Translations under genes and position numbers: made by a program
DNA from: Saccostrea echinata
Taxonomy: Eukaryota
NCBI RefSeq assembly: GCF_033153115.1
Contig: NW_026889759.1
Location: 8,742,001 to 8,806,000, forward strand
Direction: 5' to 3'
Length of the DNA: 64,000 nucleotides
Notes under the pieces: model-generated
The model's database searches: none
What the model saw: only the letters and a program-made list of their open reading frames with translations
Told to the model about the DNA's origin: nothing
Shown here: positions 10,601 through 62,720 of the stretch, one piece after another
Numbering within the stretch: position 1 is the first letter of the stretch
Layout of the letters: the number at the start of each line of letters is the position of its first letter

Positions 10601-11829
10601 ATATCAACGAGATATTTGGCAGGTATTTAGACACTATCTAAAGACATATGCTGAGACGTAGAAGTCTATTTTTATTGCCTGTATTTTTAGTTTGGGTTGA
10701 TAAATATGCGTTTGGTCATTTTTTTTTAATTCACCCTAATGGGGATAATTATAGCGTTTCTTTGTTTCCAGAAAAATGCCAATGTCCATCCGTCGGCACT
10801 TGCTACCACATCATGGCAGTAAAAATGAGTATCGGAGAGGAAAATATCGAGGAAAAATGGATATACAATCTGACACAGCTGCGAAGGAACAACAGGAAAA
10901 GGGTAAACAAAAAAGCAGGCACCAAAAAACCAAGACCATGTGACAAAGATGTAACAATAAAATTTGAGGACGAGAATTTTTTAAACACAGAAAAGGAAGA
11001 GACAAGCACTGAAATAAGGGAAAATCCAGATGCGGAAAATTGGATAGAAAATGGCAAAAACATTCTTACCATCAAACACAAAAATGACATTCAGAATAAT
11101 TCCATGCTGTGTAGTGATGTAATAAACTTTGCACAAACCATCCTGAAGCAACAGTTTCCTCAGATTAATGGATTCCAACACACTGGATATGCCCCAATTA
11201 TAAAAGAAGGAAACTGGGAGTACAAATTACAGATGTCACCAGAGAAAGCTCCTGTAGCTCAAATTCACCACACTGGTTATCAGCACTGGATTGCTAGTTT
11301 GCAAATGAATGAAAGCGATAAAGTTATGATTTTGGACAGTTGCAATAAGAAGAGAGATTATATATCACAATCAACCCAGTTACAGCTTGGGAAGTTGTAT
11401 GGAAGAGGAGAAAAAACTTTGAATGTGTCCATCTTGGATGTGCAACAACAAACAAATGGTATTGACTGTGGCGTCTTTGCAATTGCCAATATAACAGATT
11501 TTTGCATTGCAAAAGACATCAAGGACCAACCGATACAGTATGACATAGGGAAAATGAGGGATCATTTAATAAAATGCTTGGAAGAGAAAAAATTTGAGGA
11601 ATTCCCTAAAAAGCAAAAACAGAAGAAACGCCTGAGTTTGACAAAGAAGCGAGAAAATATTCAGAAGATCAGTATGGACTGTGCAGCACGGTGTAGCCTT
11701 CCAAATGTGTATGATGACATGATTGTCTGTGAAAATCCATCTTGTGGACAATGGTATCATCTACGCTGTGTTGGAATCCAGGATCCAAAAGAGAGTCTCA
11801 TCTTCATTTGCCCATCGTGTGCTAACTGA
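7654..11829 (+). pseudogene. Disrupted MULE transposase-SWIM-Ulp1-like (C48) protease-PHD finger ORF
   Basis: CWNH (MULE CxxH) and TNNMSESMN (catalytic E); joining 8406 to 10741 restores KGSNGDNYSVSLFPEKCQCPSVGTCYH (SWIM); then HW..LDS..QQQTNGIDCG (C48 triad) and a C4HC3 PHD finger; N-terminal part not recoverable. Confidence 0.85.
8407..10736. mobile_element. Non-autonomous TIR element nested in the MULE ORF (Sola2-like termini and TSD)
   Basis: TIRs GGGTGAATT(C/A)AAAAAAAATGACCA; 4-bp TSD TAAT (8403-8406, 10737-10740); its removal restores the host frame. Confidence 0.85.
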
Positions 11830-13009
11830 ATTAATAAAAATATGAGGAATGAATTGTTTGTGTTTTTTTGTGTGTTTTTAATGGGAATATCACAAAACAG
11901 TATTCACTAGTGCTTCTTAAATTTACTTGTAAACCGAGTCTGTGCCTTGGTAGGGCGTTGTAGTAATACAATAAGAACGGTTTGCTAGTAACTATGTGAA
12001 TATAGTGCTTAGAAACATGAAATGAAATAAAAATATTAAAAACCTGTCTTTGTTTTTACTCTTATTTTTTAATTAGTATAGCATAAAACATTAGTGCTTT
12101 ATTTAAAGTCGGATGAAATGTAAACCGAGTCTGGACCCTGGTAGGGTGTTGTATTTATACAATAAGAACGGTTTATGTATTCTTTTTTAATGTTTGATGC
12201 ATGTAGATGTTATATATATTTCAAAAGGAGGGGGGTGGGTATACATTAGGCTCAAATGAGGATACCTCCGCGTGGTTTGGGCTGGGCAATGTCACGTAAG
12301 TGATAGCTAACATCCTCTCGTCAGCATTCCGGAAATTAAAGGTTCGTCCCGGGTAAACGTGTCCGGTTTTGGCCAGTCCCAGGTATTCAAAAAATGCGTA
12401 TATTTTTAATAATCAGGATATATTAATACAATAGTTAGATGTTTTTAGTAGTTTAAGTTCAATTTCAACGATCCAACAGACATAATTGCAAATAAGTTAT
12501 CGAAATTAAGTATGAAACATCAAAAAGTGTAAACCGGGCTTGCTACCCATTTTAGTCACCAGGAAAAGGACGATCGGTGATTATCATTGAAAAACACAAT
12601 ATTTTGAATTAAAATTTTCAGCGAAGGCAAATTTTATTGTTATGAATTATGTCCTTAAATTTCATTAAGAAAGAATAAGTATTCATTCCGTAATTGTCAA
12701 AAACCCGGTTTTCAGTTTCGAAATTCCCGGCCCGGCCCGGGTTTTACTACCCATTTTAGTCACACTCATTTTCAGTATTCTGAAAACAACCTTTCAGTTC
12801 TTGACAGTTTATGTGTTAGTGTTTATCTTAAAGTCTTTTTCGTTGAAAAACAAAATAATAATTCACACTTAAAATACGATTATTCTCTTCCTGTGGCTGT
12901 GAGTTGTGTATTGCTGTATGATGTATCCATCCATGTTCCATCGCCTAAAGTAAAAGTGAAAGTAGAGATGGACCAAAACTAGCTTCAGGAATTGAAGAGC
13001 ATTTTCATA

Positions 13010-36347: not shown

Positions 36348-39300
36348 TCATTCTTCTGTTGTGATCAATTTTTCTTCTCTGAACTTGGACAAAAATGGCT
36401 CAGGAGTGGGATCTCTTCCCATGAAAGTTCTGAATACAGTTTTAGGATCAACTCCTGCTCCCATTCTTAAATAAGTGTCCCGAAATCTGAATCAGAAACA
36501 ATAACATAAATCAAAATTTCATATACACAATAAAGTAAAAGTGTAGAAAGAGGTCTTTTGTTAAACCTTTATTAAAGGAAAAAAATCTTACCAAATCATA
36601 TCACAGTTTTTCTTTAAGATGTTTACAAAGATTTAACAGAGGCTGATGAAATCAATATTTATATTTTATCTGTGAATAACTTGTTTTTTGTTTCTGTTTG
36701 ATTGTTCTTTTTTTTTTTTTTTTGGGGGGGGGGGGGGGTTAGTTTAAATATTTAATCATTACCTTCTCCCAACAATGGCTAATTTTTCCTCATCACCAAT
36801 AACATCTTTGAAAGCTGAAACTGCATCAGCTGCTACCATCTATTTAAAATAAGAGAAAGAAATAGATGGAATGGGAATCTATACATGAAAAAAATTGAAA
36901 TCCTTCATATCAAGCAATTTTAGTTTTACACCTACCTTGGCCCATGTGTCAGCATAGTACAGACAGCTTTTATTTCCTATGAAGATATCATTAAATGTAC
37001 AAAATCTCTCATCTTTGGGATGTAGGGGCATAGGGATGAACTCTTTGTATAGTCTTCTGTACTGATCAGGGGTAGATTCAGGGCTTTTTAAAAATTGGAG
37101 AAAAAAATTTAATTAAGAATCTAATATAGATGACCTTTATGAAAATAAACAATGACAAAATAGATATCACTTTGCTTTATCAATAGCAGAAGTCCTTAAT
37201 TTCACTTACGTTTTAATGAATGTACCCCTGGTTTCTCTGAAAAGAAAAGAAATGTGTAAAGTGATCAGTTGTTATTTTATATTATTAAATAAAGACCTTA
37301 AAGATATGTGCATTTAAACATGGAAACACATTTCTTCAATTTTATTTGTCAAAAAAATCTATGAAAGGACAAACAAAGAAACAAAAAGTACGGTAGAACA
37401 CTCTACACAGGAGGTTATCTGATAAAGAGGACTTACTCTAGATAAAATTCCAAATCCAGGGCACTTTTGAAAACTTCATTTAGAACATCAACTGACTGCA
37501 TGTGCTGTTGTGCTGTAAATTTGATTATATACACACATTTAACTGTATAGTCAGAACATGGTTGAAAAACTAGAGGTACTGTGAGCAATGAGCTCAAAAA
37601 AAGATACCCTCCACTCCCATATGAGTATAATGGCAAAGTCCATTTTTTGTTATGGGAAGCCCCAGATATCTGTCTGATCGAAACCAAAAATAGGAGGTGC
37701 TATGTAAAAAAAATAAAAATACTAAGAAAGTCATTAAATTTATTCAGTGATACAGGAGGAGTTGCTGATAAGAGACCGGGTATCCCCTTTCTGGAAAAAA
37801 AATTATGGGGGAGAAAAGTTACATTTATATCTACCTATTAGAAAAGGTATGTATCAGTAATCTGGATGCTTCTATAACCTGGACAATTTGCTCAGGAACA
37901 GATTAATGAGGCTCAACTATATTCAATTGATTTTTTACAATTTCATACAATAAGAACTCTGAAAACTGATTTATCTTTATAATTGATGATGGGTTATCCA
38001 AGGATCCCAGAAACATCAACTCTGATTTGTTAAATTTTTAAGCTTTAACCACATTACAAAACAAATTATAATCTTACTCCTCTGTAACCTTACATGTAAT
38101 CATTCTGTTTAACAGTTCTGTTGGGATCTTTTCACCAGATGAGTGGTGACTACTGAGAGAGCTGAACACTTCCGGACAGTACACCAGATTCCACAGTGTG
38201 TAGGGCACAATGTACTGTGCATCTGGCTCCATAAACCTGTCCCCAGATAACTCACTGTATGGGGCCTTAGAAAGAACACACTGGAGGACACATCCCATCT
38301 GTAATGTCAAAATCAAAAGTCAAAAAGATGGAGGACACATCCTATCTGTCATGTCAAAATCAAAAGTCAAACAAATGGAAGACGCATCCCATCTGTAATG
38401 TCAAAATCAAACATCAAAAAAATGGAGGACACATCCCATCTGTAATGTCAAATGTCAAACAGATAGAGGACACATTCAATCTGTAATGTCAATAAGTCAA
38501 ACAGATGAAGTACATACATAACCAGAAGTCTCTGATGAGACTGTAGCTCTACTGGTTTGTACTTAAAAGTAGCACTTGGACTTGAAACTTTGCAACAGCA
38601 ATACATAGAATAATGATCCTTGGTGTAGTCTCTTTTTGTTTTATTGAGATTGTTGTATTATTAAGATTTATTGCAATCAGACTAAATCTGTAGAAGGAGT
38701 AGCCTTTTAAAAGAATTTTACAGAAATTTCAATTTTAGTAACCATGACAACATCATTCAACAAAATCAAAAAAACAATAAAGACAATTTTGTATCATAGT
38801 GTAGTCTACTCGTGTGCCAAGTTATACTGAAATCAGATCAAAACTTTAGGAGGAGTAGCATTTTGAAAGTATTTCAAGGAAATTTCTATTTTTAGTAACA
38901 ATGGCAACAATGTTCATAGAAATCAAAAACCGATATACAGAATTATGTATCTTAGAATAGTCTACTTGAGTTTCAAGTTATACTGAAATCAGATTAAAAC
39001 TGTAGGAGAAGTAGGGTTTTAAAAGAGTTTCACAGAAATTTCTATTTTAGTAACCATGGCAACACCGTTCATTGAAATCAAAAATCAATACACAGAATTA
39101 TGTATGATAGTCCAAGTTATAATGAAATCAGATCAAAACTGTAGGAGCCTGGAGGAGTAGCATTTTGAAAGTATTTCAAGGAAATTTCTATTTTTAGTAA
39201 CCATGGCAAAATCGTTCATAGAAATCAAAAACCGATAAACAGAATTATGTATCTTAGTGTAGTCTACTTGTGTGCTAAGTTATATTGAAATCAGACCAAA

Positions 39301-42300
39301 ACTGTAGGAGGAGTAGCATTTTGAAAGTACTTCCCAGAAATTTCTACTTTTAGTAACCATAGCAACACCATTGAAATCAAAAACCAATACACAGAATTAT
39401 GTATCTTAGTGTAGTCTACTTGTGTGTTAAGTTATATTGAAATCAGACTAAAACTGTAGGAGGAGTAGCGTTTTGAAAAATTGTTTACAGACGGACAGAC
39501 AGACAGACGGACAGACGACGGACACCTTACTATCACATAAGTTCTTCTGGTTTCTGACCAGTAGAGCTTAAAAAATGACTGTTTTTTAATAATTGTTAAC
39601 AATAATTTTTACACACTGCAAAGAGATGAAAATAGGTCTTACTGTCATGATGAAACTGTACAGGTCTCCTATATTTAACAGACTCGGTGTGCTATGATCA
39701 AATGGAGGGGGGTTTCTTAGTGAAGCATAAACCAAAGGTGTAGTATCAACAACAGTGCTTCTGTCTGAAATGGCAAAGCAGTTCTTATTGTAATGATAAC
39801 TGATACTGTTATTATAATTCAGTAACCAAGAATATATAGTTATGTAGTCGGACCAAAATATATATAAATCATCAAAAAGTCATTATCAGAATGAAATGTC
39901 AACAGTTGATTAAAGTATGGTTCATCTGCCCTTATCCCACTGAAATATAGGTGAAATACTGCCAACTTGATGTTAAACAATAATCAATCAATCAATCTGC
40001 CTATATACCTCTTCCCATCTCATAGTAAGTGTGGTCCACTTTATGATTTCTTGCAAAAGGATCTATATAAATCGTCCCTGCAACTGTGCCTAAAATGATT
40101 GACAAAAGAAAAGTTACAAACTACCGGTAAACACATGATAAATGATATCTCTCCTCTATCTTCATTTTATCCAACTGTTTATACATTTATCACATTTCTG
40201 TAAACTTATCATTTTCTTACCATCTTCCTCTATGATATCAAACACTTCTACACTCTCATGCCAAGTACTGCAATCATGTCGTTCCTGTTGATAGAATATG
40301 ATATTAAAAGATTTAAATCAACTACTGCTCAAAATATTGTAAATAGCATAAATTTGTCTGCAACAAGTTCAGAAGAAACCTTTCTTAGTAGCCATGCACA
40401 ATTATTCAATATATTTGTGCAAAGTAGATATACAACATAATTGCATGCACATGTATTTCTATTTTTGGGGGTCTCTTACCTGAAATTTTATACCAAACAG
40501 TTTGGTACATAGTTGGAAGAAATTGTCTCTCACTTTAGAATATGGGAAGAATTCTGAAAACTGATCCAAACTTTTAAAACTGAAATAAAACAGGAAACAG
40601 AAGATAAAAATTGTTCAGGACAATCACTTTCAACTACATTGTATATTTAATATTGGAAAAATTTGAACATTGTTTACCCAGAGTGTAATTGACAGATAGA
40701 AAGTTCAAGAGATGAGTATACACTTGAACAAGAATTCTTGTCTAGGGTTTTTGGTTAAGAGTTGACTTCTGCACTTTGTATTATAAATAGTGGGTAACTG
40801 AATCAGTAAGCTAAAAATTACTTGTAAATATCCTCCATCCTCCTTTGCCTAAAGTACTCTATGTCCCAGTGTTCTATCTCAGATTTTTTAGAATACTCCC
40901 TCAGTGTTTCAATATCATTCTTCACAATATCATACAGCTTATTCTTCATCCTAAAATAAATCATCAATAAATTCTTCTCTGAGGCAACCATTCTACTACA
41001 CATGATTATTATAAATGGTTTGCAATCTTTTTATACATTGCAAATACATGTAATACTATACATACATGTACCATCCACTTTAATCCATGTTCACTTATTC
41101 AGTATTTGACAATTTTGTAAGTGACCAATTTTATGACTAAGGAAATCAATTGATACACAAATTGAAATTACATTAGCATATAAGATTAGAAACACAAAAC
41201 CTTAAAAGACTGAAAACGCACTGTACAACCTACTACATGTGTACTTACATGTCCAGGACGCTGACAACATTATCCATACTCCCTGCCATTGTTCTCTCCA
41301 ACACCATATCAACATAACTTTTAAATCCTAGCTTTGTGGCCAAAAGATGTCTGTAAGCAAATTAACAAAGAAAATATGAAGATTGAGCTATTTTTAAAAA
41401 AGATGACATTTTCATGAAAGGAACATTCTGTCAAGTCCACACATGTGCAATTTATGTAGGTACCTGTTTTGGACAATTCCATGAATGGCTTGTACATTAC
41501 TAGAGCGTTTTTCCATCATTTCACTACCAGCCATGCTGACCATTTTAATCCACACCTCTTTCCGCAGAGAACCAAGTCGGCAGTATCTCAGGATACCATC
41601 ATAGACGACTGGATGATGAACAATCCTCCATGGACCTTTTCTTGGGTCTGAGCTGTGATGAGAACAAAATATGCCGATAAATAAATACTTAACACATGCA
41701 AGGTAACCCATAATGTGTAAACTGAATAAATTAAATGCCTGATCTGAATTTTTTCTTTAAATTTGATATAAAGGATTTTTTTTCCATTTCAATAATTTAA
41801 AAAATTATGAAAATAGTCAATAACAATTTAAATGAAACCCAAAAGCACCAGAACAGACTCTTTACAAATAACAAATGCAAAAAGGAAAAGAATGTCACTG
41901 AGTCAAGAAATTATAATAATTAATTATTTTACAGATTATTCTTTTTTCACATAGCCATGCCAACATCATTTATCAAAATCACAAATCAATAATATAACTG
42001 TCTTCATTGGTATAATCTACTTGAAATGAAAACAAAAAAGAATTGTGTGTCTTAGTGTGCTCTGCTTTTGGTCATTGTACCAAGAAAACTGCAGGAGAAG
42101 TAGCATTTTGAAAAATTGTTTACGGAAAAACAGATCGACGGATGACGGACCTGATGCCATTGCTGGGACCAGTAGATTAGAGCTAAAAATCCACATAACA
42201 TTTTATAAGCTTACCCTGGTGGCACCATGTACTGTAGAACATTAAGTGGAATTCCCTGGACAAAGGACTCGTCAACCTTCTGCATGGAGGTACTTAAGGC

Positions 42301-45300
42301 ATTGTCAAGGTTCAGCCTGAAATTGACAAACAAAAAAAAAAAAAAATGCAGAATGATCTAAAATTGAATCCTGTGGTAAAGATATATACAGATAAACTCT
42401 GGTATCTCGAACACAGATATCTCGAATACCATGGATATGTCGAAGTGATTGTGAAGTCCTAACCATGTACCGGCATTTCTTAAGTATTTTACCCTTGATA
42501 TCTTGAACCCTCGGATATGTTGAAGATTTTTCTCGGTCCCATCAATTTCGAGATAATGAGGTTTGATAGTATGTAGAAAGTATCACTATTTATAAGATAT
42601 ACACGTTTTATACATGTAGTGTTAAAAATTGAATAAGCTTGAAGATTTGTTACTTTTTCTTAAAGATACATGCATTCCATGATAGATATAAAGATAAGAG
42701 GAACAGAATTACATTGTTATGTATACACTTCACCTATACTCATGCATTTTACCTGTACTTATCTTGTTTGTGTAAGATCTTTTTTGTAATTGTAGAAAGT
42801 CCCTTCTTTTGGGAATCTTTAAGTTCTGCTCCGTTTCTAATGAATTCATGAATGTATAGGTCAAGTAACCTGGACTGGGCTTCTGTGAGATTTCCATTGT
42901 TGCGAACACTCTTAATATCAAACCAAATTTCAAAATATTGATTAGATACAAAAATAGGAAAAAAGTATACATTAATGGATTATGAAATACAATTCAGATA
43001 GCAGGTAAAGGGTATATCTTGGACTTACGAGCAATGCTTTGTACAGACTTTGCCCATACCACCTCTCTGACTCTACTCGTCCTGCAATGTCTGTTGTCTG
43101 GTAGGTAAAAAAATCTTTTACACTTTAGCTTATTTGATTAAACATTTTCCCTTCTCAGTATAATAATTTTTTTTTCTTTCTTGACAAATTTGCATGCTCT
43201 TTTTGCTCATAATAAAAAATGTAATATGCCAATCCTAAAGATATACATTTACATGTATTCATAGTCTGTCCTTTTTTGGGGGGGACATTTAGTTCCATTT
43301 CTCCTAATTTTAAAATCATTATTTTCACAGTTCTGTATACATGTAATATCCTTTCTTTCATTTCTTTTGCAGAAAACAAATCCTATATATCCTTAATTTT
43401 TTTTCATTCTTTTATGTCATCAATATAATGATAGACACAAAGTTAAATCCAATCTCTCTTGTTACACAGTAATTCAAATAATACAAATTAATACTAATTC
43501 CATCTGAAAGAAGTATCTGACCTCTGTCCTTGAAAAATTAGGGAGAAATATTGATAGTCCTAAAATAACTGGAAAGCAAAGACATAAATTTTGAAAAGTA
43601 GAAGCCTTGAATTATAAAGCAACTGATGAAAATTAATGGTATCTATTATAAACTAGACTTGCAATACCTATTAAATACTTCCTTTTAAAATTAATTTTTA
43701 CCTTCAAAAATGCATCATAATATTTTCCAGTTTTTCCTACGCCCAGCTGTTTGCCGGTGTACAAACTGTAATATAATGGCACACGAGCCTTTTCTACTGG
43801 ATGTAAAACAGATTCAAATGTAGGAAGTTCTGTAGATTCTACAAAGACAAAAATAAGTCAATAAATATAATTCACGGCTTGGTTCACTCATCACAGTAAT
43901 AATTCATTCAAAAACTTTCAATAAGAGCATAATCTAGTGCTCTGTTATTTTCTATTTGAATACTTATTTGTCATTTGAAGTGCAAATTTGAAAAACTGAC
44001 GATGTCACTGAAGCACTTGTACATGTAAATGGAAAGTACAGTATGAAATCATGTAATTGATATAAACCTGTATCTTCATAGATTGCTTAGACATTATTTA
44101 TTACTTGGATACTACCAAATCAGATGCATGTATTTCATGAGTCTTTGACTGTGTCTTCTGAGATAAAATAAATCTTCAATTCTAGAAGTTCAGTAAACAT
44201 AGGTAATCAAAGATTCTGAAGCTCACCTTGACAACTGTTATGATATCTGAGTTAGGCAAAGCCTCATACCAAATAAATATTCTGATACTGTGCATTCCTA
44301 GATGCATCATCCATGCAAGTTTGGTCATAGATACTTTGGAATGGACCTGCTACAAAACCTTTGAACTGGTCACTCCTCAGCAAAATATAGGTCAGATCCA
44401 GCATCCAAAGCAGAACTGTCAGTGTGCATCCCAAACATGCATCATTCATGCAAATCATCACAGGTCTTCTAGATACTTGGGAATGGACCTGCTCCAAGGA
44501 CTTAACCTAGTCAATCAGTCATTTGAAAAATGGAAGTCAGATCCAGCACCTGAAGGATGTATGGTAGAGTGCATCCCTAGATGCATAATCCATGCAAGTT
44601 TGCTCACTTTCAGGCTAATAGTTACTTGGGGATGGACCAACTAAAAAACTTAAACCTGATCATTCATTTGAAAAATGTAGGTCAAATCCAGCATCTGAAG
44701 CAAGCCTGGTAGAGTGCATCTCTTATAGATGCATACTCAATGATTGCTCCTAAAATTTAAACTTAGTGCAAAAACTTTAATGTACTGCAAAAACATTAAC
44801 CTGGTTATTCTTCTGGAAAATATTGGCTGAAAATGCAACAGGTACATTGAAACATACTAAATACATCTTTCATGCACCTTAATTAATGAGAGGCATAAGG
44901 TTTACTTGGAAATCTGCTTCAAAAACTTAAATGGGATGCTGATGCTGACAGTTGTGGGTATAGAATAAACTCACACTGACTTCACAGAGGTGAGCTAAAA
45001 ATGTAGGCACTGATTAATATTTGTTTTCTCCTATGTGCAACTTTTTAGTACCTTGTAGATCTTTTAAATGATTTTGAAATGACATATCAAAATCCTGGGA
45101 AAGTTTAGCTGCCCCTGTGATAATTTTGTCTGGTGGTATACTAAAATCTGGCATTTCATGGTATCGTAATAATGGATTTGTCTCAGGTGTATCATCAGGG
45201 ATATCAGGCAATCTGTTCAAATGAAAAACAAAATAACAAAGTTAAGTTCAAAGGAGAAGGAAAATATAATCAACAGCATACCATCACCAATATGAATGTT

Positions 45301-48300: not shown

Positions 48301-50437
48301 CAGGGCCATAGCATCTTAATTAAAGGTCAGAGCGACCTACTTTTAATGCGCGACACACCTTCTACCCAAGACGTATCAGCTGACAAAGTTTGATAATTCT
48401 ATGCCTAATACATGTAGTATTAAAGTTATGAGCCGGACACGAAAAAGCTAACAGACGGACGGATGGACATGAAGGCTATAACATAATACGTCCCTTCTTA
48501 AGACGGGTGAATAAAAATCAAAGGTTTACCATCCCGATTTCTTAGGGGGCCATCTCAAAAGTTGTCAAATTTTCCTATTGGACCCTATGGGAATTTGTTG
48601 GAAAAGTGCCAAATTATCACATTTTCCCCATATTTTTTGTATTTCTGCCCTAGGGATTTCCTTTTCAGTCAAATAGATGAAAGTTCATAAAAAAGGCACC
48701 AAATTGTGAAAACTCAAAAAAGTTTACCATCTGATTTGGTCTAGGAATTATTACAAAGTTTATTTTTTTCCAATGCCCAATACCTCTAAATTTGCCATAA
48801 TACGGCATACATTTGTATATATCGGCGCAGATGAATTATTTTAGTAAAAAATACATGTAACCATGTTTAGATTGCTGGTATGTTTCTTTTGATGTTCTGT
48901 CAACAGTTTTTAATAAAATGTCCATGGGCGTCTTGAATATTCAAGCGAGTTAAATGCATAATACTTCAGTGTCATGCATTGCTTCAGCGTCATGCATTGC
49001 TTACAGAACCAGAAAACAGTGACGTCGTGAAAGCCATTTCGGCGTTTATTCCTAATTATTGTCTTAAAAGCACATTTTAAGACCCATAAATGTCACAGAT
49101 AATATAATGTTAATTTTGTATTAAAATTACAATACTTAGGATAGGTGTTATGTTGCACCTAAGTCTGCATGAAACTAAAAAGCTGTGCAAAGACATGCAC
49201 ACTCGAATTAGACTCGGCCTCGTTAAGATTGATATTCCAAACTTCTGATATTTCTTGGACAATTCAAGCTGCAGATCTGTAGCTCACTGGTCTTATAATA
49301 TTGAGATCTATGACAAAAGAGCTACAGTGCAACCAACTGAAAAAAAGTGTATATTCATTGTTCACCAAAAAATGTCTGCTATTTCTCAATGTATTTCTCT
49401 ATATTCAAGCTGTCATCTCAAAATATCAGTAACTGTTGTTTACAGCCCTCCTATGCCTTAAATTCAGACCATTGAAAATTTTGCCTATATATACATGTAC
49501 TTCAATTTTGTGTGGCAAGACAATTTGGTCTAATTCACTTTCTGCTTGATGTATACATACAGATTTATTATCTATATAGCTCTCTATAAACCCATATATG
49601 GACAAGGTAGTGAAATTTAATCAAATTACTGCATATTTTTAATAAATTTTTTTTCAGGATAACTATATCTTTGCAGTCACACAAGTCTTTGTTATTCCTT
49701 GTTCAAAATAAAAATTTGGCATGTTTCACAACAACATAAGTTTCTTTCTTACAATACAAGGTATAACAAGTACCACAGCTGCAAAGTCAATGTGTAAATG
49801 TTATTTTGAAAAGTTTCAATAGAGTATTCATCCCCACAATGTCAGTGGTATTATGTCAACTCGTTGCCATAAGACCCCTGTCAGACCAACTTCATTCAAT
49901 ATCTTACAGGGCTGACTGCAGCAACGTCTTTTGGGAAAATTACAAATATTTATTGATTGTTTTTCTTATCTCTCAATCAATCACATTAAGCCTTTCGGAG
50001 ATAAACTACATGTAACACATGTATTTGAGGTGTCAACTGATTCCTTTCTGTTTACATTATTGTCTACTTCAATTTGCTCAAAGAGAGAAACAAGCATAAA
50101 AAAAGAATGAAGTTAGTCAGGGGATCCCATGTCAACGAGCTGACACAGGACCCCTGACGTTTTGAGGATGTAGATTTTTATACAAAGAAATTAAACAATA
50201 TTTTATTTAAAAAATTGGAATCATCTGCGAGAAAATTCGAACCAATGACCTATATGCATTATGCAACAGTGTCTCATTTTCATCGAGCAATGAATACTTT
50301 CTGTGTTATACGTCAACTTACAATAGATGAAATCCTGACATTGTGTAGTTAATGTTGATCAATCGACGTTGTACATGTGCTATACAGGGAATAAACAATC
50401 TTTTTCCGTGCCGACTGATCATGATGGAAGCAGACAT
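36348..50437 (-). CDS. Peptidase M3A/oligopeptidase A-like protein, ~733 aa, probably mitochondrial and catalytically inactive. Exons 50437-50322, 45212-45052, 43838-43702, 43097-43029, 42910-42753, 42316-42215, 41652-41464, 41350-41249, 40950-40822, 40579-40480, 40284-40221, 40089-40009, 39764-39643, 38298-38094, 37512-37437, 37236-37210, 37083-36936, 36839-36763, 36486-36348
   Basis: NPLL..MPDF, KGPWRI, ATKLGFKSY..MAGS, EHWDIEYF, KLFGIKF, IYIDPFAR, FRDTYLRMGAGVDPKTVFRTFMGRDP; 19 exons sum to 2202 nt in frame. Confidence 0.88.
38283..38510. repeat. ~47-bp tandem repeat (5 copies) spanning a splice acceptor
   Basis: GGAGGACACATCCCATCTGTAATGTCAAAATCAAAAGTCAAA units near 38283, 38330, 38377, 38424, 38465. 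Confidence 0.85.
38519..39575 (-). mobile_element. HINE-like element with ~156-bp tandem units
   Basis: Repeated GAAATCAGA..AAAACTGTAGGAGGAGTAGC units; GACA/GACG microsatellite; AGCTTAAAAAA end. Confidence 0.75.
45593..49222. mobile_element. TTAA-flanked TIR element hosting nested insertions
   Basis: TIR (T/C)GAGGCCGAGTCTAATT; TTAA at 45589-45592 and 49223-49226. Confidence 0.6.
46114..47641. mobile_element. Non-autonomous foldback element, IS3EU-like
   Basis: ~460-bp inverted arms starting TATGGTGGCATATTTCTGCCCC with 21-bp GTTGACATGCAA subrepeats; 6-bp TSD GGATAG. Confidence 0.75.
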
Positions 50438-51564
50438 CTTGGAAATCTTCAGAATAACGAGCCCGATACAATTAAATATTCAAAACGTTCTTTCTTACCT
50501 CATTATGATCATTGCGTTTCATAGTGATTATCAAGTCCAGAAAACACATTTATCAGCAAGAATTTTTTTCTTGCATTTATTAACTTTCGCAAATTAAAAT
50601 ACTATATATAATACTACAATAAATCTACCATTGTTACTTAATTACATTTACATGCATCTCTCAGCTTTTAATTATGCCTTTAAAAAGAATTATACCTCTA
50701 ATAATTCTTATTTTTATCAAAGAATTGATTCCTTGGTTTTTATACACAGAAAATTTTCTTTGCATAATTTAAGTAGTCTAATTGGCATTCCATCCCATTC
50801 GATTGACACTGGCTTCTCACATCCTTGTTGCATTTACTTGCCATTCATTAGCTTGCGATTCATAAATAAGAAGAGGCATTTGACTGAACAAAGAACTTAT
50901 TCTATTATAGCTATAGCATAGTTATATGCTCCAAATGCTTAAATAAACTACTTTCACTGAAGGTTGTCTATATATAATTAATACATTAGCTATGCATATG
51001 CCATATCCTTTACTACTTTAGTTTTCCATTAAAAAGAATTAAATTCAATATATTCACATCAATTCCAGAATTTTCTCTTCATTCTAGAGATAAAATCATA
51101 ATTGTTATCACAGTATGCTTTCAAAATTATCAATTTCTGGCATTTAATATTTAGATGCACCTTAATAATGGGATTTGTGTCTTGAATTTGAATGTTTGCT
51201 GAATTATATACGTCTTCTTTATGTTGATGTCCACAAAAACATACATCAAGAAAATTGTCCTCTACGAAGTGAAATAAAGAAACATAGTGATCAAGTTTAA
51301 GAATAATGCAAATATTTGTTCATATGTCCTTCCATCCAAATAGTTATAAAAAAATGGGTTTCTGAATCTGAATCTGGAAACTCCATAGTTGCCAAATTCA
51401 GCAACCATAGCCAAAATCAGCAACGTTTCTGAATATTTGGACTTTCTGTGGCTAGCGTCCTTTAATGATCCCATGTACACTACAAATACATGTACAATTT
51501 TTTCAGACAAAAGACAAATAAACTATAACAATGTTTTTTAATTAACATAAATACAGTACAACAA

Positions 51565-54500
51565 TCAGGATTTGTGTTTTTTCTTTTTGAATTTCTTCCG
51601 AACTCCCAGGGATTCCTCTGTATCATCTGCTTCATCATCCTCATTCTTACGTTTCTTTCTTCCTCGTTCTGTTTCATTCATTTCCTGAAAAATAATTTCT
51701 TTCTTTCTTTAATTTTCATAATAACATTTAAAGCTGAAATACTTATGACAATTCAACAATACAAGTACAGAATTCCATTATTCATTATTCTCTAAATACT
51801 TCAGTTTCTACATGTAGAAATCCTGCACCAATGTATGAACATGTTTTGCCACCCACCATTTTGGCGTATCTCTGTGCCTCTGTCACTCTCTCCATCAGCT
51901 GCATCACCTCCTCCTCCTCTGTCTTATACAGGGGCAGCTTCTTACCAATCAGGTGTTCTATTCTCTGATACAGCTCCACATCATACCTAGAGATTAGTTA
52001 TAATTCATCAGTACCTCCATCACGATTTATGAGGATTTTTCAGGTGCCATGTACACATACCACAAATGGCTAATTAAAGATAATATGTTCTTGTAAAATA
52101 AACCGTAATTGACAATAATAAAGGGCTTCAGTGAAGCATCTTCTAGTAATAATGTGTTTATGTGAAACATTTAAAATCATGTACATTCATGCATTTATGG
52201 ATGTTATGATAGACAGCAATAATTTGATGTCCTAGAATTGTAACAGGTACATGTACAACATGCTATAAACTTACTGTGAAACAAAGGTGATGGCTACCCC
52301 TGAACGCCCAGCTCTTGCTGTCCTGCCAACTCGATGGATGTAATCTTTAGAATGTGTTGGGATGTCAAGGTTCAAAACAACATCCACATGTGGTATATCA
52401 AGACCTCTGGGATAAATGAAAATATGTTTTCCAATAAATGACATCCAGGTTAATGCTTTTATGCATTTACAGTAATGCTCTATTTTCATCATAATTTATA
52501 TATTTCATCAGATTTTTTCTCCATTTAATTATGAAACTAACCTGCTTGCTACATCAGTGGCAATAAGGATGGATCTGTTTTTACTCTTAAATTTATTCAA
52601 AGCTCCAAGTCTTTTTGACTGATAAAAATTAAAAAAAGTTGTATAATTGTTTTGTATCAAAAGAAAACATCTAACAGTATATGTGTATCTTTCTTTTAAT
52701 ATAATGGTGAAAAAATAAAACAGATACATGTATCACTATCAAATCATATATTATTTGCTCCTATAGAAAATCTTCATTTGACTAGCAGAGCAATTTTCAC
52801 CTCACTATCATTATTTTGAAAATTATAATATAAAAAAAAATAATTAAATACCTGACTCATCTGTCCATGCAGTGGAATTGCAGTGAGTCCCAGGTTCCGT
52901 AACATTAGTGCCACTCTCTGTGTGTTAGCGCATGTACTACAGAACACCATGAAGGAGTTGCCAGCCAACTCATTCAAAATATACACCAAATAGACATCCT
53001 GAAATTATAGATTATTTGCACTATATTCCATATACATATACCTGTATGTACATTAATATTATAGATATGATCATAATAATTCAAACAAATCTGAATATTT
53101 TTAAGAGAGTTCTCACATATGTTTTGTTATTTCTGGCTTGGTGGTTCTTGAAAACAAGAGGATTTCTATATGACTCTAGTTGAAATTGACTCATTGGTTC
53201 AAGAGAAAAATTTGAAAATGGAGAAAATTTAGAGATGACACATGACAGACAATTACAGACAAAAACAGATAGCAAATACATCACCTAAGGTGACTTTTAA
53301 ACAGCTACCTTGAATTTCACAGGTATAAAAAGGTAGTACTGTTGGAGTTTGTCCACTGTTTGGTATTTTGATGAAACTTCAACTCTCACTGGGTTTTGCA
53401 GGGATGCCCTTTGTAATTTTGCCACCTTGTTAACAGATGAAAAAAAGTTTAAAGATTTAGTCATTTTTGCATTCTTTTTAAATATGCATGTACATGTATA
53501 CAGATAAATCTTTATTGTTACATGGAAAGCAATTGTTTTTACTTTGTGAAACTTTTTTATGCTAGAGCTTAGAGAAGACAGTAAAGGACACACAAAGAAC
53601 AGAAAGTTGATACCAACATCAGCCAGGATTTATCAGAATACCTTTTTTGTCATTGTGGCAGAAAACAGCAGAGTTCTTCTCTCTCTTGGTATCACTTTCA
53701 GAATTTTATCAACCTGTGCATAAGACACATGTAAGAATTAATTCATAGTGAATTGAAAACACAATAAAAAGATTTTAATATAAAGTACATGTACATGTAT
53801 TACATGTAGTGATTAACTTTACATCAGATATGAAATTTAGAGAACAATACTTGGTTCTTTCATGTTTTGTCAGCTTCTTAAGGTATGTGTTTTCTCAGGA
53901 ATCATTTACCTCTTGTTCAAAATCCATATTAAGAATTCTATCTGCTTCATCCATGACCTGTTGAAAACACACAGTACATGCACATTAAAAAGGAGTTAAG
54001 AGGTATTCTTAAAACAAATTACACAAAGAAAACACTTTTGTAGAGAAAACACTTGTTGTTTAAATGCTAAGTACACCAGTACACATAACCTTTCTAAGGA
54101 AAATCTAATAATTTTTCTTACCAAATATTTGAGAGACCTTAAGTTGAATCCCTTTGTGTTTTCTAGATGGTCAACTAATCTTCCTGGAGTTGCTGTTGGG
54201 AAACAGTATAAAAAGAAATCTTTTTTTTCAACAAAATCCAGAAAATATTTACATAAAATTAAGTCATGAAATATTTATACAAAATATTCTTATGAAATTA
54301 GTACATGTATCTTTATTAATGTTCCTATTAAATTCAAGTTCATTCGGGTTGATTTACTTATGAATTCTAACCACCTCAACATCATTTGCCTCAGAAAATC
54401 TCCAAGCAAAATTAACTTGCTGCAATTATTAACTTTTGTGCCAAAGTTTAAAACAACTTTTACAATTATCCGAACATTCTTTTCTAAAATACGGTCCTCA

Positions 54501-57500
54501 CCTATGACAACATGAGGTTTTTTAGCCAGCATCAAAGCTTGTGTCATCATATCAATCCCTCCCACAATCACAGCTAAAGAAAAACACAGTTCATGTTAAT
54601 ACACAAGCTAATACATCTTACCTACATCTATATCTACTTGTTAAGTAATCAGCAGTTGCATGATTTTTGATGCCTTTATTTGCCACTAAAACACCCAGTG
54701 CATTGCATGAAACTAAAAGGTATTTTATCTTTTTTGAACCCAATTTACTGAATACTTGAACAAATTTCTACTGACCACATTTGATTCCAATTGATGCCCC
54801 AAGAGCCTCGAATTGTTCAGAAATTTGGAAAGCCAGCTCTCTTGTAGGAGTTAGGACAAGAGCATAGAGTCTTTGAGGATTATCAAGAAGTGTCTGTAAA
54901 ATTGGTAATGCAAATGCTCCTGTTTTTCCTGAACCAGTCTCTGCTAATCCAATCACATCTGACCCTATTATAAATACATAAACAAAATTTTACTTTTCAT
55001 TCAGATGTCAAGGTTATTTTTAAGTTGAAAACTTAATGACCTTGTGATTACCAGACTATGAAAACTTTATGGGTTCATAATAAAATCCAAGGCTTAAAAT
55101 GCATTAATTGTAAAAAATAAACTGATATTTAAAAATTTATATTACACAAATGTTCAGGCATGTACACAAGTAATGCTGTAGATTTAATCTCTTATTGTAT
55201 GAAATGTAACATTGTAACACTTTCTTCATGTCACTGCCGAATTGCAGCCTTGATAAATACTGTATGTGTACTTAAAAAAGCAGGCTTCATATTTTAGCGG
55301 CTTTGGTGCAGACAATGATGCGCTAATTCATGAATACCGCTAAGAAATCATTTATAAATACAATATACTGCATGGAAATGTATAGCGCTAATTCATATTT
55401 TCGCCAAAAACTCCATACCCAGTGATTGCGCTATATTTTGAATATGCCAATTTATGTATACACGTACAGTATAATGCTTTAAAGAGTCCAATCTGTTGAA
55501 ATTAAATGACAAAATACAAATAACTCAAGAAAATAAAAACTTTTATGGTATGGGCAAATAGTCATCTGAATTTCATTTGCCTAGCAAATATTTTACATAT
55601 ATTGACACATTGTTATCTGCAACTTGAGCAGTTTTTAATGCAACTGAATCATTTTTGTAACATTTAGCTTTAGGTGTACCTTGCAGAGCAACTGGAATAG
55701 CTTCTCTCTGGATCTTCGTTGGAGCTTTCCATTTTAATTGTTCACAGGCCTCACAGAGAACATCAACAATGCCCTGAAATTAAGGAAGTTAAATGAAACT
55801 TAACCTAATTCTTTTTCTTTCATTGTAAGTTGTATTGTTAAATTCATTTATCACTTGTTGACTCCTTTACATAGTGGATATCAGTCATACGATATCATTT
55901 TCATACCAACAGTCATGTTACCACAATGCTCATATACAAGAGGCCCATGGGCCACACCTCTCACCCACCATGGCTCAGGGATAGAAAGCACACAACTTGT
56001 TTGATAAAAATAATATCCAACCACAAACTATGGGGAAATTCTTTATTATTTATACGCCTTGATTCATTTTCCATCCACTGGCATTGAATTAGCAGATTAT
56101 GTTGTATGAATTTGTTTTGTGTAATGACAAATCCCAAGACCAGATCTATAGTCAATCAGAACTTATCAGATGTCTCCCATCACTCAACAATCACGACTTC
56201 CTAATTGGCTACCACAGAAGAAACCTTGTGTGTATTTGCTAATTATGGGCAAATAAAACATTTTGACCAACTGTGAATAGAAAAGATTTATAGAACATCA
56301 CCTCCCTGATCTGCATCTTGTATGAATTTTTACTACCAATGCAGCTGTAATAACACTGAAAACTTCCTTGAATCATGGGCAACCTTTTGTTCACAAGATT
56401 TTTTTCCTAATCTTTAGTATTTTTATATACCAGTAGAGGGACAGTTTCTAAAACTTTACAAAATGGGGAAATGATACCAGATATCACAATGTAGGTATGA
56501 TATGTTAGAAATTCATGTACTTTTGATATGTATCATGACCTTTTAATATTCTTAGAAGGCACCTGGGATGGACTGATTACACCTTGATAGAATGTTCTAG
56601 CTATCATTTAAATGATATTATCCTGATAAACAGTCTACTAATGAATTATGTTCATTTTGTGTGTTGGCAATGTAGCAATTTAAGCTGGGGTAGATAATTC
56701 TCATATACATATACACTACTGAAAATTCAGGGGGTTCCTAGTGTTTATATGGCATGTAAATTGGAAGTGATAAAAAATGTTGAAAAATATGTTGATTTTT
56801 GTTCTTTAATATGTGGATTTTTTTTTTCATTTGTAATATTTTTATTATTATTATTATATAATCTAATTCTGGTTGTAACATGGCATTTGATTGGATAAAA
56901 AACTGTATAAATCAGGTTGAGCCCGCGTGGCGCAGTGGTTAGAGCGTCTGCTCTAGAGTCGCGAATTAAGGTGTTGATTCTTACGTCGCGGGTTCAAATC
57001 CCACTGTGGGACGTGGAGACCGGTCCTTCGGATGAGACCGTATAAACCGAGGTCCCGTGTCACAGTAGGTGCTGGCACGAAAAGATCCCTCACTTTTCAA
57101 TGGCCGTAAGTGCAAAGTATAGGACAAAATTTGCAGCCCTCCACTGGCAAGTTGTGGCATCTCCATACGAGTGAAAAATTCTTGAGAGGGACGTTAAACA
57201 ACATACAAACAAAAAAAAATAAATTGGGTTGCCTACATCACAATGACTTGCCTCAAAAACGTATCGATATGCATGATGTTACATTTAAATTTTGTACAAT
57301 TTAAGTCGTTTTTTCAGAGTAATCATCTTTTTTTTCTTACATTAAACAGGTTGGGCACACACCACCAAATGGTCATTTAACCCCCGTTTGGTGGTCAATC
57401 GCCCATATCGGAGTCGGTATTTACTGACCATTTGGGAGAGAAAAATCGTTTTGTTCAATTCTGTGGAATGGGGTGAAATGGCACATAATATTAACTCGTG

Positions 57501-59138: not shown

Positions 59139-62100
59139 ATGGCAAAGCATCACCCAGATCTTATTTTTTGCAGAAAACAGCCTGGTGTAGGTATGTAAGG
59201 CGGAAAAGGTATTTTTGATGTATTAATAACTTTGTTTTCTTTTAGGTCAGCCATTTTTCAATCAGATATTCTTTCATCAGACTCGTGATAAGAACATACA
59301 TTATACATATATCCACTGGTTTCACTATACAGCTATATACATGATATACACTAAAACAGGTCTGGTTAAATACGTTGCTTGATATGTCTCCTTCAGTGCA
59401 TTTACAATCAAAGTTCTAAAAGTTCTGTAACAGAAGAGCAGAAAAATGCGACAGACCAGACCGGGATTCGAACCCGGGCCTCCTGAATCTCCAGTCAGGT
59501 GCTCTACCAACTAAGCTCTTAGCTGTCTGGCCACCTGCCATCAAGCCTGTCTGACCGCCACATTCCTCTCCTCTCTCCTCAGTCCCAGAAGACACCAACC
59601 CAGGCTCTTCCCTGGCCAGGTCTTGTACCTGTACCATCCTGGTCAACAGCACCAAATGTAAGGGGTGCGTCGATTTACCCAAATGGACCCAAATGGAAAC
59701 AAATAGACCCAAATGGAAACTCAAATGGACCCAAATGGAAACTCAAATGGACCCAAATGGAAATCAAACGGACCCAAATGGAAATCAAATTGAAACCAAA
59801 TGGAATTTTAAATATATATTATCGTATTTTAAAGATGCTACTTAAATAAATAAATTTCCAAATTTAGGAGCATTAATGAAATGCACAACATATATCATTG
59901 TTTAAAATAGCAATTTATCCAATAAAGAATAAAAAAAGATTAGCGGATTAAAAACCAAGTATCAAGTATCATAATAACTATCTACAATATAAATTTAATT
60001 ATAAACCTATATCCTTTAGCGTAAATTAAGTTCATTAAGAATAAGTTATTAAATTAGAAAGTTAATACTTCTGTATATTTTCTATATAAATTTAATATTA
60101 TATATTTCAATTTTCTTTTCAATGATATGCAAAAGTTAATTACAAATAGAAAAAAAATATAGAAAAGAATGATTAATATTCTCCATTTGTAAGTTCATTA
60201 TTTTCATAATTTTATATAAGTAACAACTTGATAATACGATAATATATATATATTTGAAATTGCATTTGATTTCCATTTGGGTCCATTTGTGTCCATTTGG
60301 GTTGCATTTCATTTTGGGTCCATTTGGGTAAATCGACGCACCGAATGTAACAGTAGAGGAGAAAAACGTGACGGACCAGACCAGTCTCCAGTCAGGTGCT
60401 CTACCAACTGAGCTATCTGACCACCAATGATCGAACCCATCTGACTGCCACATTCCTCCCTCCTTAAAGGCCTCGGCCACCGAAGACATCAATCCAGGCC
60501 CTTCCTTGCCAGGTCTTTCACCTGTCACTTCCAGGGCATGGCTTGGCACCAAATGTAACAGGAGAGGAGAAAAATGTGGCAGACCAGACCAGTTTCCAGT
60601 CAGGTACGCTACCAACTGAGCTATCTGGCCACTGGTGATTGAACCCGCCTGATCGCCACATTATTTGTGACCACACAGTTACTTCTTGAATGAAGTAACA
60701 AAGAAGACCAGTTCTGACAAACATGATATAAATTGATTGGTAATAATTCAGCACAATGAGAAGAAATCATATTTATCCACACAAGATGGTGGACAGTTAC
60801 TCAATCAGCACATATCACAGTTAGAATATGTCCCATATAGTTGAAAGTAGCAAAACGGAGTGATTTGCTCCAACAGTATTTTGGAGTATACAAAAGGAGT
60901 TGCACTGAAAATAATCACGAATTTTATCATAACAAACCTTTTTGAGCTTGTATATGCCTTCTCTCCCCTTTACCACACAAAACCAAACAAACAAACAGAA
61001 AACAAGGAAAAGGGAGAAAAAAATCACACATCATCACAATGTTCTATTTATATGCCATGTCATTTCCCTGAATGGTTTGTAGAATACACATAGATTAGAA
61101 TTATCTGCCCCTGTTTATTTGACTACCCGGTACATTGAAAGTTACACATTGAACAAATTCTATCGTGATCCAGGTACCTAGGACAAATCATTTCAGTTAC
61201 AGAATGTTCTGTCTGCCCGGACCCCTGCATTACTGCACATGTAGTCAGGTGCTATAATAACTGTTATCCAGTCAAATATCCATAGTATCCTTGACCTAGG
61301 AGTTTGACCTACTTTTGAAAAACTTTAACCTTGGCCATAACTTTCGAACAGTTGGTGCTTGGGGTTTCAAACTTCACACCTGTATTCCTTGTGACAAGAC
61401 CTTCCTCTGGATATCAACCTCTTTGACCTTTTGACCTTGACCTAGGAGTTTGACCTACTTTTGAAAAACTTTAACCTTGGCCATAACTTTTGAATGGTTG
61501 GAGCTAGGGCTTTCATAATTCACATATGCAATCCTTGTGACAAGACCTTTTCTTGGATACCAACCACCTTGACCTTGACGTTTTACTTACTTTTATAAAC
61601 TTTAACCTTCGCCATAACTTTTGAACAGTTGCAGCTATGGCTTTCAAATTTCACAGGTATATTCCTCGAGACAAAACCTTTCTTTGGGTACCAACATTTT
61701 TTTCTTTTGGCCTGGATTTTGACTTGCATTTGAGAAACTTTAACCTTCGCCATAAGCTGCCATACAGGGGCATCAGTGTTTCACAAACACATCTTGTTTT
61801 TTCTTGACTTTCATTGAAAATTAATAATTTTTCTTGAAACATTGTACAAATAAACCTATTGATTGTTATGCTTTCTTTTTCAGCTATTGGTAGACTCTGT
61901 GAAAAATGTAAGTTTTTGTTTGCATCTTAATTACTTGAAGTTGAATTTGAATGTTATAAAGATTAATACATGTACTACAAACTTCATACATATGATATGA
62001 ATGTGATTGGATATTGAAACTTATATGGTATATAATAATCCTAGGAAAGTAGGAAGAAATGTTGTTTACAGTTTTCCACAAAAGCATTTTGTTTTGTAGG

Positions 62101-62720
62101 TGATGGTAAATGTGTAATATGTGATTCATATGTCAGGCCATGCACATTGGTGCGGATCTGTGATGAGTGTAATTATGGCTCCTACCAAGGTCGTTGTGTG
62201 ATTTGTGGAGGGCCTGGGGTTTCAGATGCTTACTACTGCAAGGAGTGTACCATAATGGAGAAAGATGTGAGTACAGACACATGTACATACAGATATATGC
62301 TTTACATATTCAGTTGAACTTCAGTATCTCAAACATCAATATTGTAAATACCATAGATATGTTGAGGAGAGTTAAAAGTCCCGATGACTTTTTCTTCATA
62401 TTTTAACCTTGATATCTGGAATCATCAGGGCTGCATTCAAGATCGTAGGAACTAACCTAGCAGCTAGGTGGTAGATATCTACTAGTATCTCAATTGAACA
62501 GACAGCTAGCCTACCTGCTAAGTGTTAGATTTTGAATAAAGATATGTCAGTAAACACTAATTGTTGGAACGTACATGTATGTCAAGTCTAATTAATAATA
62601 TAATTAATGTACAGTTTACTTCTCTTTTAGAGAGATGGATGTCCAAAGATAGTGAATCTGGGAAGTGCAAAGACAGATCTGTTTTATGAAAGAAAGAAAT
62701 ATGGATTCAAGAAGAGATGA
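59139..62720 (+). CDS. PHF5A: PHD finger-like domain protein 5A (SF3b subunit), 110 aa. Exons 59139-59190, 61884-61907, 62100-62266, 62631-62720
   Basis: [58 protein letters not shown]...[16 protein letters not shown]. Confidence 0.98.
59426..60660 (-). mobile_element. Tandem TRIM array with tRNA-like LTRs (LTR-int-LTR-int-LTR)
   Basis: LTRs ~59426-59562, 60346-60452, 60554-60660 (minus strand TGTGGC...GTTACA); PBS-like TTTGGTGC and purine tracts between them; A and B boxes in the first LTR. Confidence 0.8.
59662..60343. mobile_element. MITE inserted at the edge of the middle LTR
   Basis: TIR GGTGCGTCGATTTACCCAAATGGACCCAAA with CAAATGGA subrepeats; AATGTAA duplicated on the flanks. Confidence 0.75.

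What the first reader, a model, noticed from the sequence alone, without database searches (positions are those of the whole stretch)
38094..39764. M3 oligopeptidase homologue has lost all zinc ligands: an intact pseudopeptidase
Seen: splicing 39643->38298 gives GDLYSFIMTMGCVLQCVLSKAPYSELSGDRFMEPDAQYIVPY. Known: M3A peptidases have LFHEFGHxLH...SG....WDAVELPSQ here. So HEFGH reads MTMGC and the third ligand Glu reads Tyr, yet the 19-exon, ~733-aa frame is uninterrupted and begins with an Arg-rich, acid-free presequence-like peptide. Inference: a maintained, catalytically dead mitochondrial peptide-binding or scaffold protein that automatic annotation would mislabel as an active oligopeptidase A.
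Basis: partly seen in the sequence, partly recalled or inferred. Interest (0 to 1): 0.7.

Follow-up and report, generated by a model that had tools for sequence, protein, structure and literature searches.

The report
Dead mitochondrial oligopeptidase shared across protostomes
This intact, spliced oyster gene encodes a look-alike of a zinc peptide-cutting enzyme that has lost every catalytic residue; it groups with a fruit-fly protein already described as inactive, so it is a new member of a known but little-studied group that likely helps mitochondria keep their proteins in order without cutting them.

Summary
The gene has 19 exons and encodes 733 aa. The 39643->38298 splice is in transcript contigs of 4 of 4 runs laid. 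HExxH reads MTMGC and the third zinc ligand reads Tyr. The His/Tyr/Tyr residues that hold the substrate backbone are gone too. No alternative exon restores the site. The gene is single-copy and under purifying selection (13 of 14 classified differences synonymous).

The loss is not oyster-specific. The protein falls in one strongly supported animal clade whose named members are molluscs, a brachiopod, an annelid, a nematode, a tardigrade and arthropods. In it, 0 of 48 sequences keep the four catalytic residues, against 98 of 99 outside. The clade holds the Drosophila CG11771 group, already described as an M3 non-peptidase homologue; in flies it is mitochondrial and its knockout is male-sterile (PMC13523200).

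New here: the clade derives from oligopeptidase A, not neurolysin (AU p=0.0005). It has also lost the peptide-anchoring residues and carries its own N-terminal motif. It most likely acts as a non-catalytic helper of mitochondrial protein quality control; that mechanism is inferred. Verdict: real, a new member of a known kind, modest interest.

The parts
50322..50437 (-). Exon 1 (coding part): start ATG, presequence-like peptide, start of the clade N-terminal motif
   Evidence: joint 45212/50322 in X1, X4, X5; X1 covers 50322-50434; upstream in-frame stop
50336..50437 (-). Codons 1-34: predicted cleavable mitochondrial presequence (5 R/K, 0 D/E)
   Evidence: a similar extension is in Magallana P0021 and P0156; cleavage is inferred
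45052..45212 (-). Exon 2 (rest of the N-terminal motif, start of the M3A fold)
43702..43838 (-). Exon 3
43029..43097 (-). Exon 4
42753..42910 (-). Exon 5
42215..42316 (-). Exon 6
41464..41652 (-). Exon 7
41249..41350 (-). Exon 8
40822..40950 (-). Exon 9
40480..40579 (-). Exon 10
40221..40284 (-). Exon 11
40009..40089 (-). Exon 12 (edge strand; the G-A-W of active enzymes reads H-T-Y at 462-464)
39643..39764 (-). Exon 13; its last two codons (39648-39643) give M509 and T510 in place of the first zinc His and the catalytic Glu
38299..39642 (-). Intron 13 (1344 nt, phase 0) splitting the degenerate HExxH; holds a 156-bp repeat array and a 47-bp array with four decoy acceptors
38094..38298 (-). 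Exon 14; C513 (38292-38290) in place of the second zinc His, Y539 (38214-38212) in place of the third ligand Glu
37437..37512 (-). Exon 15
37210..37236 (-). Exon 16 (27 nt)
36936..37083 (-). Exon 17; D645, K651 and D658 (36989-36948) replace the His, Tyr and Tyr that are invariant in 99 of 99 sequences outside the clade
36763..36839 (-). Exon 18
36121..36486 (-). Exon 19: coding to the stop at 36350-36348, then 3' UTR with a poly(A)-type signal at 36141

Best explanation
This is the oyster member of an old, protostome-wide pseudo-oligopeptidase (the Drosophila CG11771 group) that has lost all zinc ligands and the catalytic Glu, is predicted to be imported into mitochondria by a cleavable presequence, and likely acts there as a non-catalytic helper (holdase or adaptor) of protein quality control. 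Shown here: (1) an intact spliced transcript; (2) loss of all four catalytic residues and of the three backbone-anchoring residues; (3) a kept M3A fold, predicted for the 73% identical Magallana orthologue; (4) one origin within the oligopeptidase A branch; (5) purifying selection. Shown in flies (PMC13523200): mitochondrial localisation; loss gives male sterility, cristae defects and age-dependent aggregates in photoreceptor mitochondria; overexpression lowers polyQ aggregation. Inferred: import and cleavage in the oyster; work done through the kept cage and new clade-specific surfaces (such as the N-terminal G-Y-x-V-L-L-P-E motif) rather than the old active site; a place near the import and processing machinery.
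For: Transcript joints. Site residues: 0 of 48 clade sequences have all four catalytic residues and none has three (30 have none, 16 one, 2 two), against 98 of 99 outside. The seven catalytic or backbone-anchoring positions are kept in 2-21% of the clade. The 41 non-catalytic positions conserved in active enzymes are kept at a mean of 69%, and the oyster keeps 30 of 41. Fold: pLDDT 93, pTM 0.91; top Foldseek hits Arabidopsis OOP and TOP2, TM 0.78-0.83. Clade support 1.0 (FastTree), 100 (LG+G4) and 100 (C20 PMSF quick tree), with the D. busckii record named CG11771 inside. Presequence-like N-termini in 31 of 38, against 324 of 6234 background windows. Fly phenotypes; of 15 genes tested, loss of only UQCR-C1, Mppa and CG11771 raised HTT72Q aggregates.
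Against: No biochemistry exists for any member in what I read, and the fly authors leave open residual activity or a regulatory-subunit role. Aggregates in the fly knockout appear only in aged photoreceptors, not in muscle or fat body, and the authors say the polyQ effects may be indirect. Localisation comes from overexpressed tagged protein. The oyster lineage has a long stem branch (0.76-1.08) and lacks two clade-specific residues (R308 and W617 columns), so its role may have drifted from the fly's. The D. melanogaster sequence itself was not examined.
Confidence: 0.5

Rival explanations
1. Peptide sink or shuttle: the dead cage still encloses cleaved presequences or short peptides and buffers them or hands them to an active matrix peptidase (PITRM1-type).
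For: Cage fold kept. The closest solved relative is an organellar oligopeptidase solved with a bound endogenous substrate (4KA7); its role on targeting peptides is recalled. Fly CG11771 and CG3107 (PITRM1 orthologue) knockouts share the same sperm-maturation defect.
Against: The residues that hydrogen-bond the substrate backbone in neurolysin (His601, Tyr606, Tyr613; PMC11310207) map to columns kept in only 5%, 20% and 2% of the clade. The edge-strand G-A-W is kept at 28%, 10% and 46%.
Confidence: 0.25
2. Structural subunit: the protein is a building block of a mitochondrial assembly (inner membrane, cristae or sperm mitochondria), as sperm leucyl aminopeptidases are in fly sperm.
For: Fly knockout gives swirl-like cristae in muscle and no motile sperm, and tagged protein is unevenly placed in muscle mitochondria. 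Precedent PMC6388916 (title and start of abstract only). The clade N-terminal motif has lower confidence in the monomer model (pLDDT 66 for residues 31-40), as a partner-binding segment might.
Against: Broad expression and a viable knockout in flies. A single locus in the oyster genome, with no sign of an expanded family. No fold hit to a dead M3A subunit of a solved complex among the rows shown.
Confidence: 0.17
3. Residual or altered catalysis with substitute metal ligands (Met509, Cys513, Asp536).
For: Cys at the second His position in all four oyster sequences. The fly authors do not exclude residual activity.
Against: No general base at 510. The three ligand columns hold no H/C/D/E in 21 of 48 clade members, one in 23 and two in 4, so no metal site is conserved.
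Confidence: 0.04
4. A decaying or mis-spliced gene whose active form uses another exon.
For: Intron 13 carries four extra copies of the acceptor, and the oyster branch is long.
Against: The listed transcript joint uses the last acceptor in 4 of 4 runs. Each decoy hits a stop at codon 11. H and E are encoded before the donor, so no downstream choice restores them. 13 of 14 classified differences are synonymous.
Confidence: 0.01

Closest known systems
Drosophila CG11771 ('M3 non-peptidase homolog'; PMC13523200)
   Same: Same clade, support 100 (through the D. busckii record named CG11771, P0191). Catalytic site lost. Presequence-like N-terminus followed by the same motif.
   Different: Only 25% identical. 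The replacements differ (fly KTFGT/KTFGS and N; oyster MTMGC and Y). The paper calls CG11771 an orthologue of neurolysin/MEP, but a clade of the dead group with a thimet/neurolysin-type gene is rejected here (p-AU 0.0005).
Oligopeptidase A type M3A peptidases: Arabidopsis organellar oligopeptidase OOP (4KA7/4KA8) and TOP2 (4PUT); NCBIfam PRK10911
   Same: Best sequence hits among solved structures (E 2e-59), best fold hits (TM 0.78-0.83), best NCBIfam model (E 2.6e-58, below the curated cut-off). Organellar targeting.
   Different: All zinc ligands, the catalytic Glu and the His/Tyr/Tyr of the substrate loop are replaced. The group has its own N-terminal motif.
Thimet oligopeptidase / neurolysin and MIPEP (animal M3A enzymes)
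   Same: Same Pfam family PF01432 and fold (TM 0.75-0.81).
   Different: Separate branch (split support 99.5). The oyster genome has its own thimet-like genes on C41 and a MIPEP-like gene on C1, with HEFGH seen in two of the C41 copies and in C1.
MPP alpha (PMPCA / fly Mppa), a mitochondrial pseudo-protease
   Same: Dead peptidase homologue kept in mitochondria; fly loss and overexpression affect polyQ aggregation the same way as CG11771.
   Different: Different family (M16; recalled) with a known catalytic partner. No partner is known for the M3 protein.

Membership tests
Active M3A oligopeptidase (oligopeptidase A) | HExxH zinc motif | tested here: not met
   M509-T510-M-G-C513
Active M3A oligopeptidase (oligopeptidase A) | Third zinc ligand Glu downstream of HExxH (PMC7565970) | tested here: not met
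   Y539; Glu in 99 of 99 outside the clade
Active M3A oligopeptidase (oligopeptidase A) | His/Tyr/Tyr of the substrate loop (neurolysin His601, Tyr606, Tyr613; PMC11310207) | tested here: not met
   D645, K651, D658; each invariant in 99 of 99 outside; mapped by motif spacing
Active M3A oligopeptidase (oligopeptidase A) | Zinc binding and peptide hydrolysis | not testable with these tools
   needs assay
Peptidase M3 fold (PF01432) | Profile match over the curated cut-off and two-domain M3A fold | tested here: met
   Magallana orthologues score 255 bits against a cut-off of 27; model TM 0.78-0.83 to OOP/TOP2. The window's spliced protein itself was not scanned or folded; its exon 14 alone scores E 6e-4
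CG11771-type M3 non-peptidase homologues | [quoted passage not shown] | tested here: met
CG11771-type M3 non-peptidase homologues | Common descent with CG11771 | tested here: met
   one clade, support 1.0/100/100 in three trees; single locus in the genome; D. melanogaster sequence not seen, link is through D. busckii P0191
CG11771-type M3 non-peptidase homologues | Mitochondrial localisation | tested here: inconclusive
   presequence-like composition only; no targeting predictor or imaging available
Thimet oligopeptidase / neurolysin orthologues | Grouping with thimet/neurolysin-type sequences | tested here: not met
   p-AU 0.000531 against the joint clade (LG+G4, 19 rows, thimet-like row is a partial set of exons)

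The most novel reading that the evidence does not exclude
Protostomes turned an oligopeptidase A into a second pseudo-protease of the mitochondrial import and processing line, alongside MPP alpha. It is one gene kept since before molluscs and arthropods split. It docks through a new N-terminal motif, exposed by presequence cleavage, onto the processing or degradation machinery and so sets import capacity, sperm maturation and resistance to protein aggregation.
Probability: 0.2. Interest if true: 0.65.

Novelty: new member of a known kind. Interest (0 to 1): 0.3.

Why it matters
The oyster gene itself is ordinary once its fly counterpart is recognised. The comparison adds three useful points. 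First, the records seen here that are named 'oligopeptidase A' or 'probable cytosolic oligopeptidase A' in molluscs, a brachiopod, a tardigrade and arthropods are probably neither active nor cytosolic. Second, the fly gene used as a stand-in for human neurolysin/MIPEP belongs to another branch, which changes how its phenotypes should be read. Third, the pattern of conservation points away from the old active site and towards an N-terminal motif and a few clade-specific residues, which gives direct mutagenesis targets in an existing fly knockout.

Tried and rejected
Alternative exon or acceptor restoring HExxH: none found.

Second, active oligopeptidase A paralogue in the genome: searches with P0156 and P0006 gave only this locus, the thimet-like genes and one weak stretch with three stops on C20. 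Sensitivity is limited: the Pfam search missed this very gene.

DEAD-box helicase fusion seen in four database models: rejected as a gene-model error.

Gene transfer from bacteria as the origin: the FastTree sister group (P0117, P0048, P0071; support 0.947) was not recovered by IQ-TREE, which put two unnamed HExxH-bearing proteins (P0024, P0040) as sisters (84.3, 99, unresolved). No donor is claimed.

The ESM Atlas gave only M3 clusters and did not settle the taxa. No run was on record as RNA; the contigs are spliced but give no expression level. Full dN/dS was not possible without orthologous coding DNA. The careful tree did not finish, so the quick tree is reported. A fly mitochondrial proteome paper and the plant OOP paper were not held, so matrix versus intermembrane location and the OOP contact residues stay open. 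The supplements of PMC13523200 were not read and may bear on localisation. No complex prediction was run.

Searches for a paper on the range or origin of this clade listed none by title or abstract start; the library lacks most subscription journals.
Full report
Gene and organism. The region is a minus-strand, intron-rich gene in a 32% GC genome of 923 Mb. Exon 14 is 96% identical to a Saccostrea cucullata protein, so the window is from an oyster close to that species. The spliced frame runs over 19 exons from 50437 to 36348 and gives 2202 nt and 733 aa, with all introns GT-AG. Contigs of four runs from two studies, guessed to be RNA, were laid on the locus. The 39643->38298 joint is in 4 of 4. 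Of the 18 joints, 17 are listed directly; the exon 15/16 joint follows from the 328 nt between flanking pieces of contig X1. Contig X1 reaches 50434, so codons 2-39 of the N-terminal peptide are in the spliced message. Contigs give no expression level.

The dead site. Active M3A enzymes bind zinc with the two His of HExxH and a further Glu, and use the motif's Glu as base (PMC7565970, passages). These four positions read M509, T510, C513 and Y539 here. The register is fixed by flanking residues in the alignment of the Magallana orthologue with Arabidopsis OOP. The edge-strand G-A-W reads H-T-Y. M509 and T510 are encoded before the donor and C513 after the acceptor, so rescue would need two alternative exons. 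No HExxH-like motif or such exon was found. Four decoy acceptors in a 47-bp array each lead to a stop at codon 11.

Selection and copy number. Of 14 exonic differences between the window and three runs that the table listed, 13 are synonymous, against 21% expected (p 2e-8). About seven further exonic differences were counted but not listed; treating all as replacements gives 13 of 21, p 6e-5. All 16 matches of the Magallana protein in the genome fall on this locus. The genome also holds thimet-like genes on C41 and a MIPEP-like gene on C1 with HEFGH, so active M3A enzymes are still present.

The family. A search of 1.84 billion representatives listed the best 150 of 5301 hits. I aligned those, five earlier proteins and the window protein, and dropped nine under 500 aa. 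One clade of 48 (support 1.0) holds the oyster. In it 0 of 48 have all four catalytic residues (30 none, 16 one, 2 two), while 98 of 99 outside have all four. Four of the 48 are oysters, and some rows have gaps. The clade has support 100 in a 66-row LG+G4 tree and in a 33-row C20 quick tree, where panarthropods separate from spiralians plus a long-branch nematode. Named members are Magallana, Ostrea, Mizuhopecten, Mytilus, Dreissena, Lottia, Lingula, Dimorphilus, Trichuris, Hypsibius, Chamberlinius, Nymphon, Cyprideis and insects. A short Capitella fragment also lacks the motif but was left out of the trees. Many members are unnamed, so deuterostomes are neither shown nor excluded. Loss of function therefore most simply predates the split of spiralians and ecdysozoans (over 500 million years; recalled). 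The scattered retention of single residues suggests the rest of the site eroded separately in each lineage (inference).

Link to known work. A D. busckii record named CG11771 is 74% identical to clade member P0098 and sits in the clade. PMC13523200 (abstract, passages, and sections 20, 22 and 25; supplements not read) describes CG11771 as an M3 non-peptidase homologue. Tagged protein lies in mitochondria. Knockouts are viable but male-sterile, with swirl-like muscle cristae and aggregates in aged photoreceptor mitochondria only. Loss raises and overexpression lowers polyQ aggregation, as for Mppa. The paper treats CG11771 as a neurolysin orthologue. Here the dead clade nests among oligopeptidase A types: OOP scores E 2e-59 against 1e-26 for neurolysin, and a clade with the oyster's thimet-like gene is rejected (p-AU 0.0005; partial sequence, LG+G4). 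An earlier unchecked scan note on an arthropod copy reached the same reading (e1-7683143); it is not independent evidence.

What is kept. The AlphaFold model of the Magallana orthologue (73% identical) has pLDDT 93 and pTM 0.91, with a disordered first 30 residues. It matches OOP and TOP2 best (TM 0.78-0.83). Of 41 non-catalytic positions conserved in at least 90% of the active set, the clade keeps a mean of 69% and the oyster 30 of 41. The least kept lie around the old active site. Clade-specific conservation includes an N-terminal G-Y-x-V-L-L-P-E-(V/I)-P-x-D motif (Pro in 43 of 44, Glu or Asp in 42 of 45) and columns K75, P251, C272, W282, R308, W617 and M663; the oyster departs at 308 and 617. 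Of 38 members with a full N-terminus (three extra insects and Magallana added, 13 skipped), 31 have at least three R/K and at most one D/E before the motif, against 5% of background windows. The last Arg lies 8 or 9 residues before the motif's Pro in 18 of 38, as an MPP cleavage site would (rule recalled). In the oyster it lies 16 residues before.

Mechanism. The scaffold is conserved, the catalytic and peptide-anchoring residues are not, and a new motif follows the presumed cleavage site. This fits a non-catalytic helper working through surfaces other than the old site (0.5). A peptide sink (0.25) and a structural subunit (0.17) remain open; residual catalysis (0.04) and decay (0.01) are unlikely. 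None of these has biochemical support in what I read. The pseudoenzyme status and the kinship with CG11771 are much firmer than the mechanism (about 0.9).

Verdict. This is a new member of a known kind. Six literature searches listed no study of the clade's range or origin, so the protostome-wide single origin from oligopeptidase A is the part that may be new. Interest 0.3.

Noticed in passing
window 38282-38501: A 47-bp tandem array (4.8 copies) repeats the exon 14 acceptor and the first ~17 nt of the exon. The four upstream decoys each reach a stop at codon 11; the listed transcript joint uses the last copy.
   Followed up: partly
window 51564-55776 (- strand) and proteins P0001, P0003, P0157, P0160: The upstream DEAD-box helicase gene is fused to this gene in database models of four oyster species. 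Here it has its own stop and its own transcript contig, so the fusion is a model error that shows conserved neighbourhood.
   Followed up: yes
G000:C41:4976000-5055000: Three tandem thimet/neurolysin-like M3A genes; HEFGH was seen in two of them, the third was not read at the motif.
   Followed up: partly
proteins P0024, P0040: Unnamed proteins with intact HExxH and N-terminal extensions come out as sisters of the dead clade in two of four trees. If they are animal, they would date the loss.
   Followed up: partly
window 38675-39478: A 156-bp repeat array (5.2 copies) in intron 13, matched by many contigs, so likely a high-copy element.
   Followed up: no
window 7654-8409 and 10642-11826 (+): Two long intronless frames; the second ends in a PHD finger with a weak CE-clan protease match, which looks like a transposon-type gene. 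The first has no Pfam match.
   Followed up: no
window 12983-29010 (+), 29175-29681 (-), 32443-32763 (+), 62045-62314 (+): Neighbours: an acyl-CoA dehydrogenase, a lysine methyltransferase (PF10294), a BolA-like gene and a PHF5-like gene.
   Followed up: no
whole gene: The oyster stem branch is long (0.76-1.08 changes per site), and the protein is 73% identical to Magallana while the neighbouring helicase is 97-98% identical among oysters.
   Followed up: no
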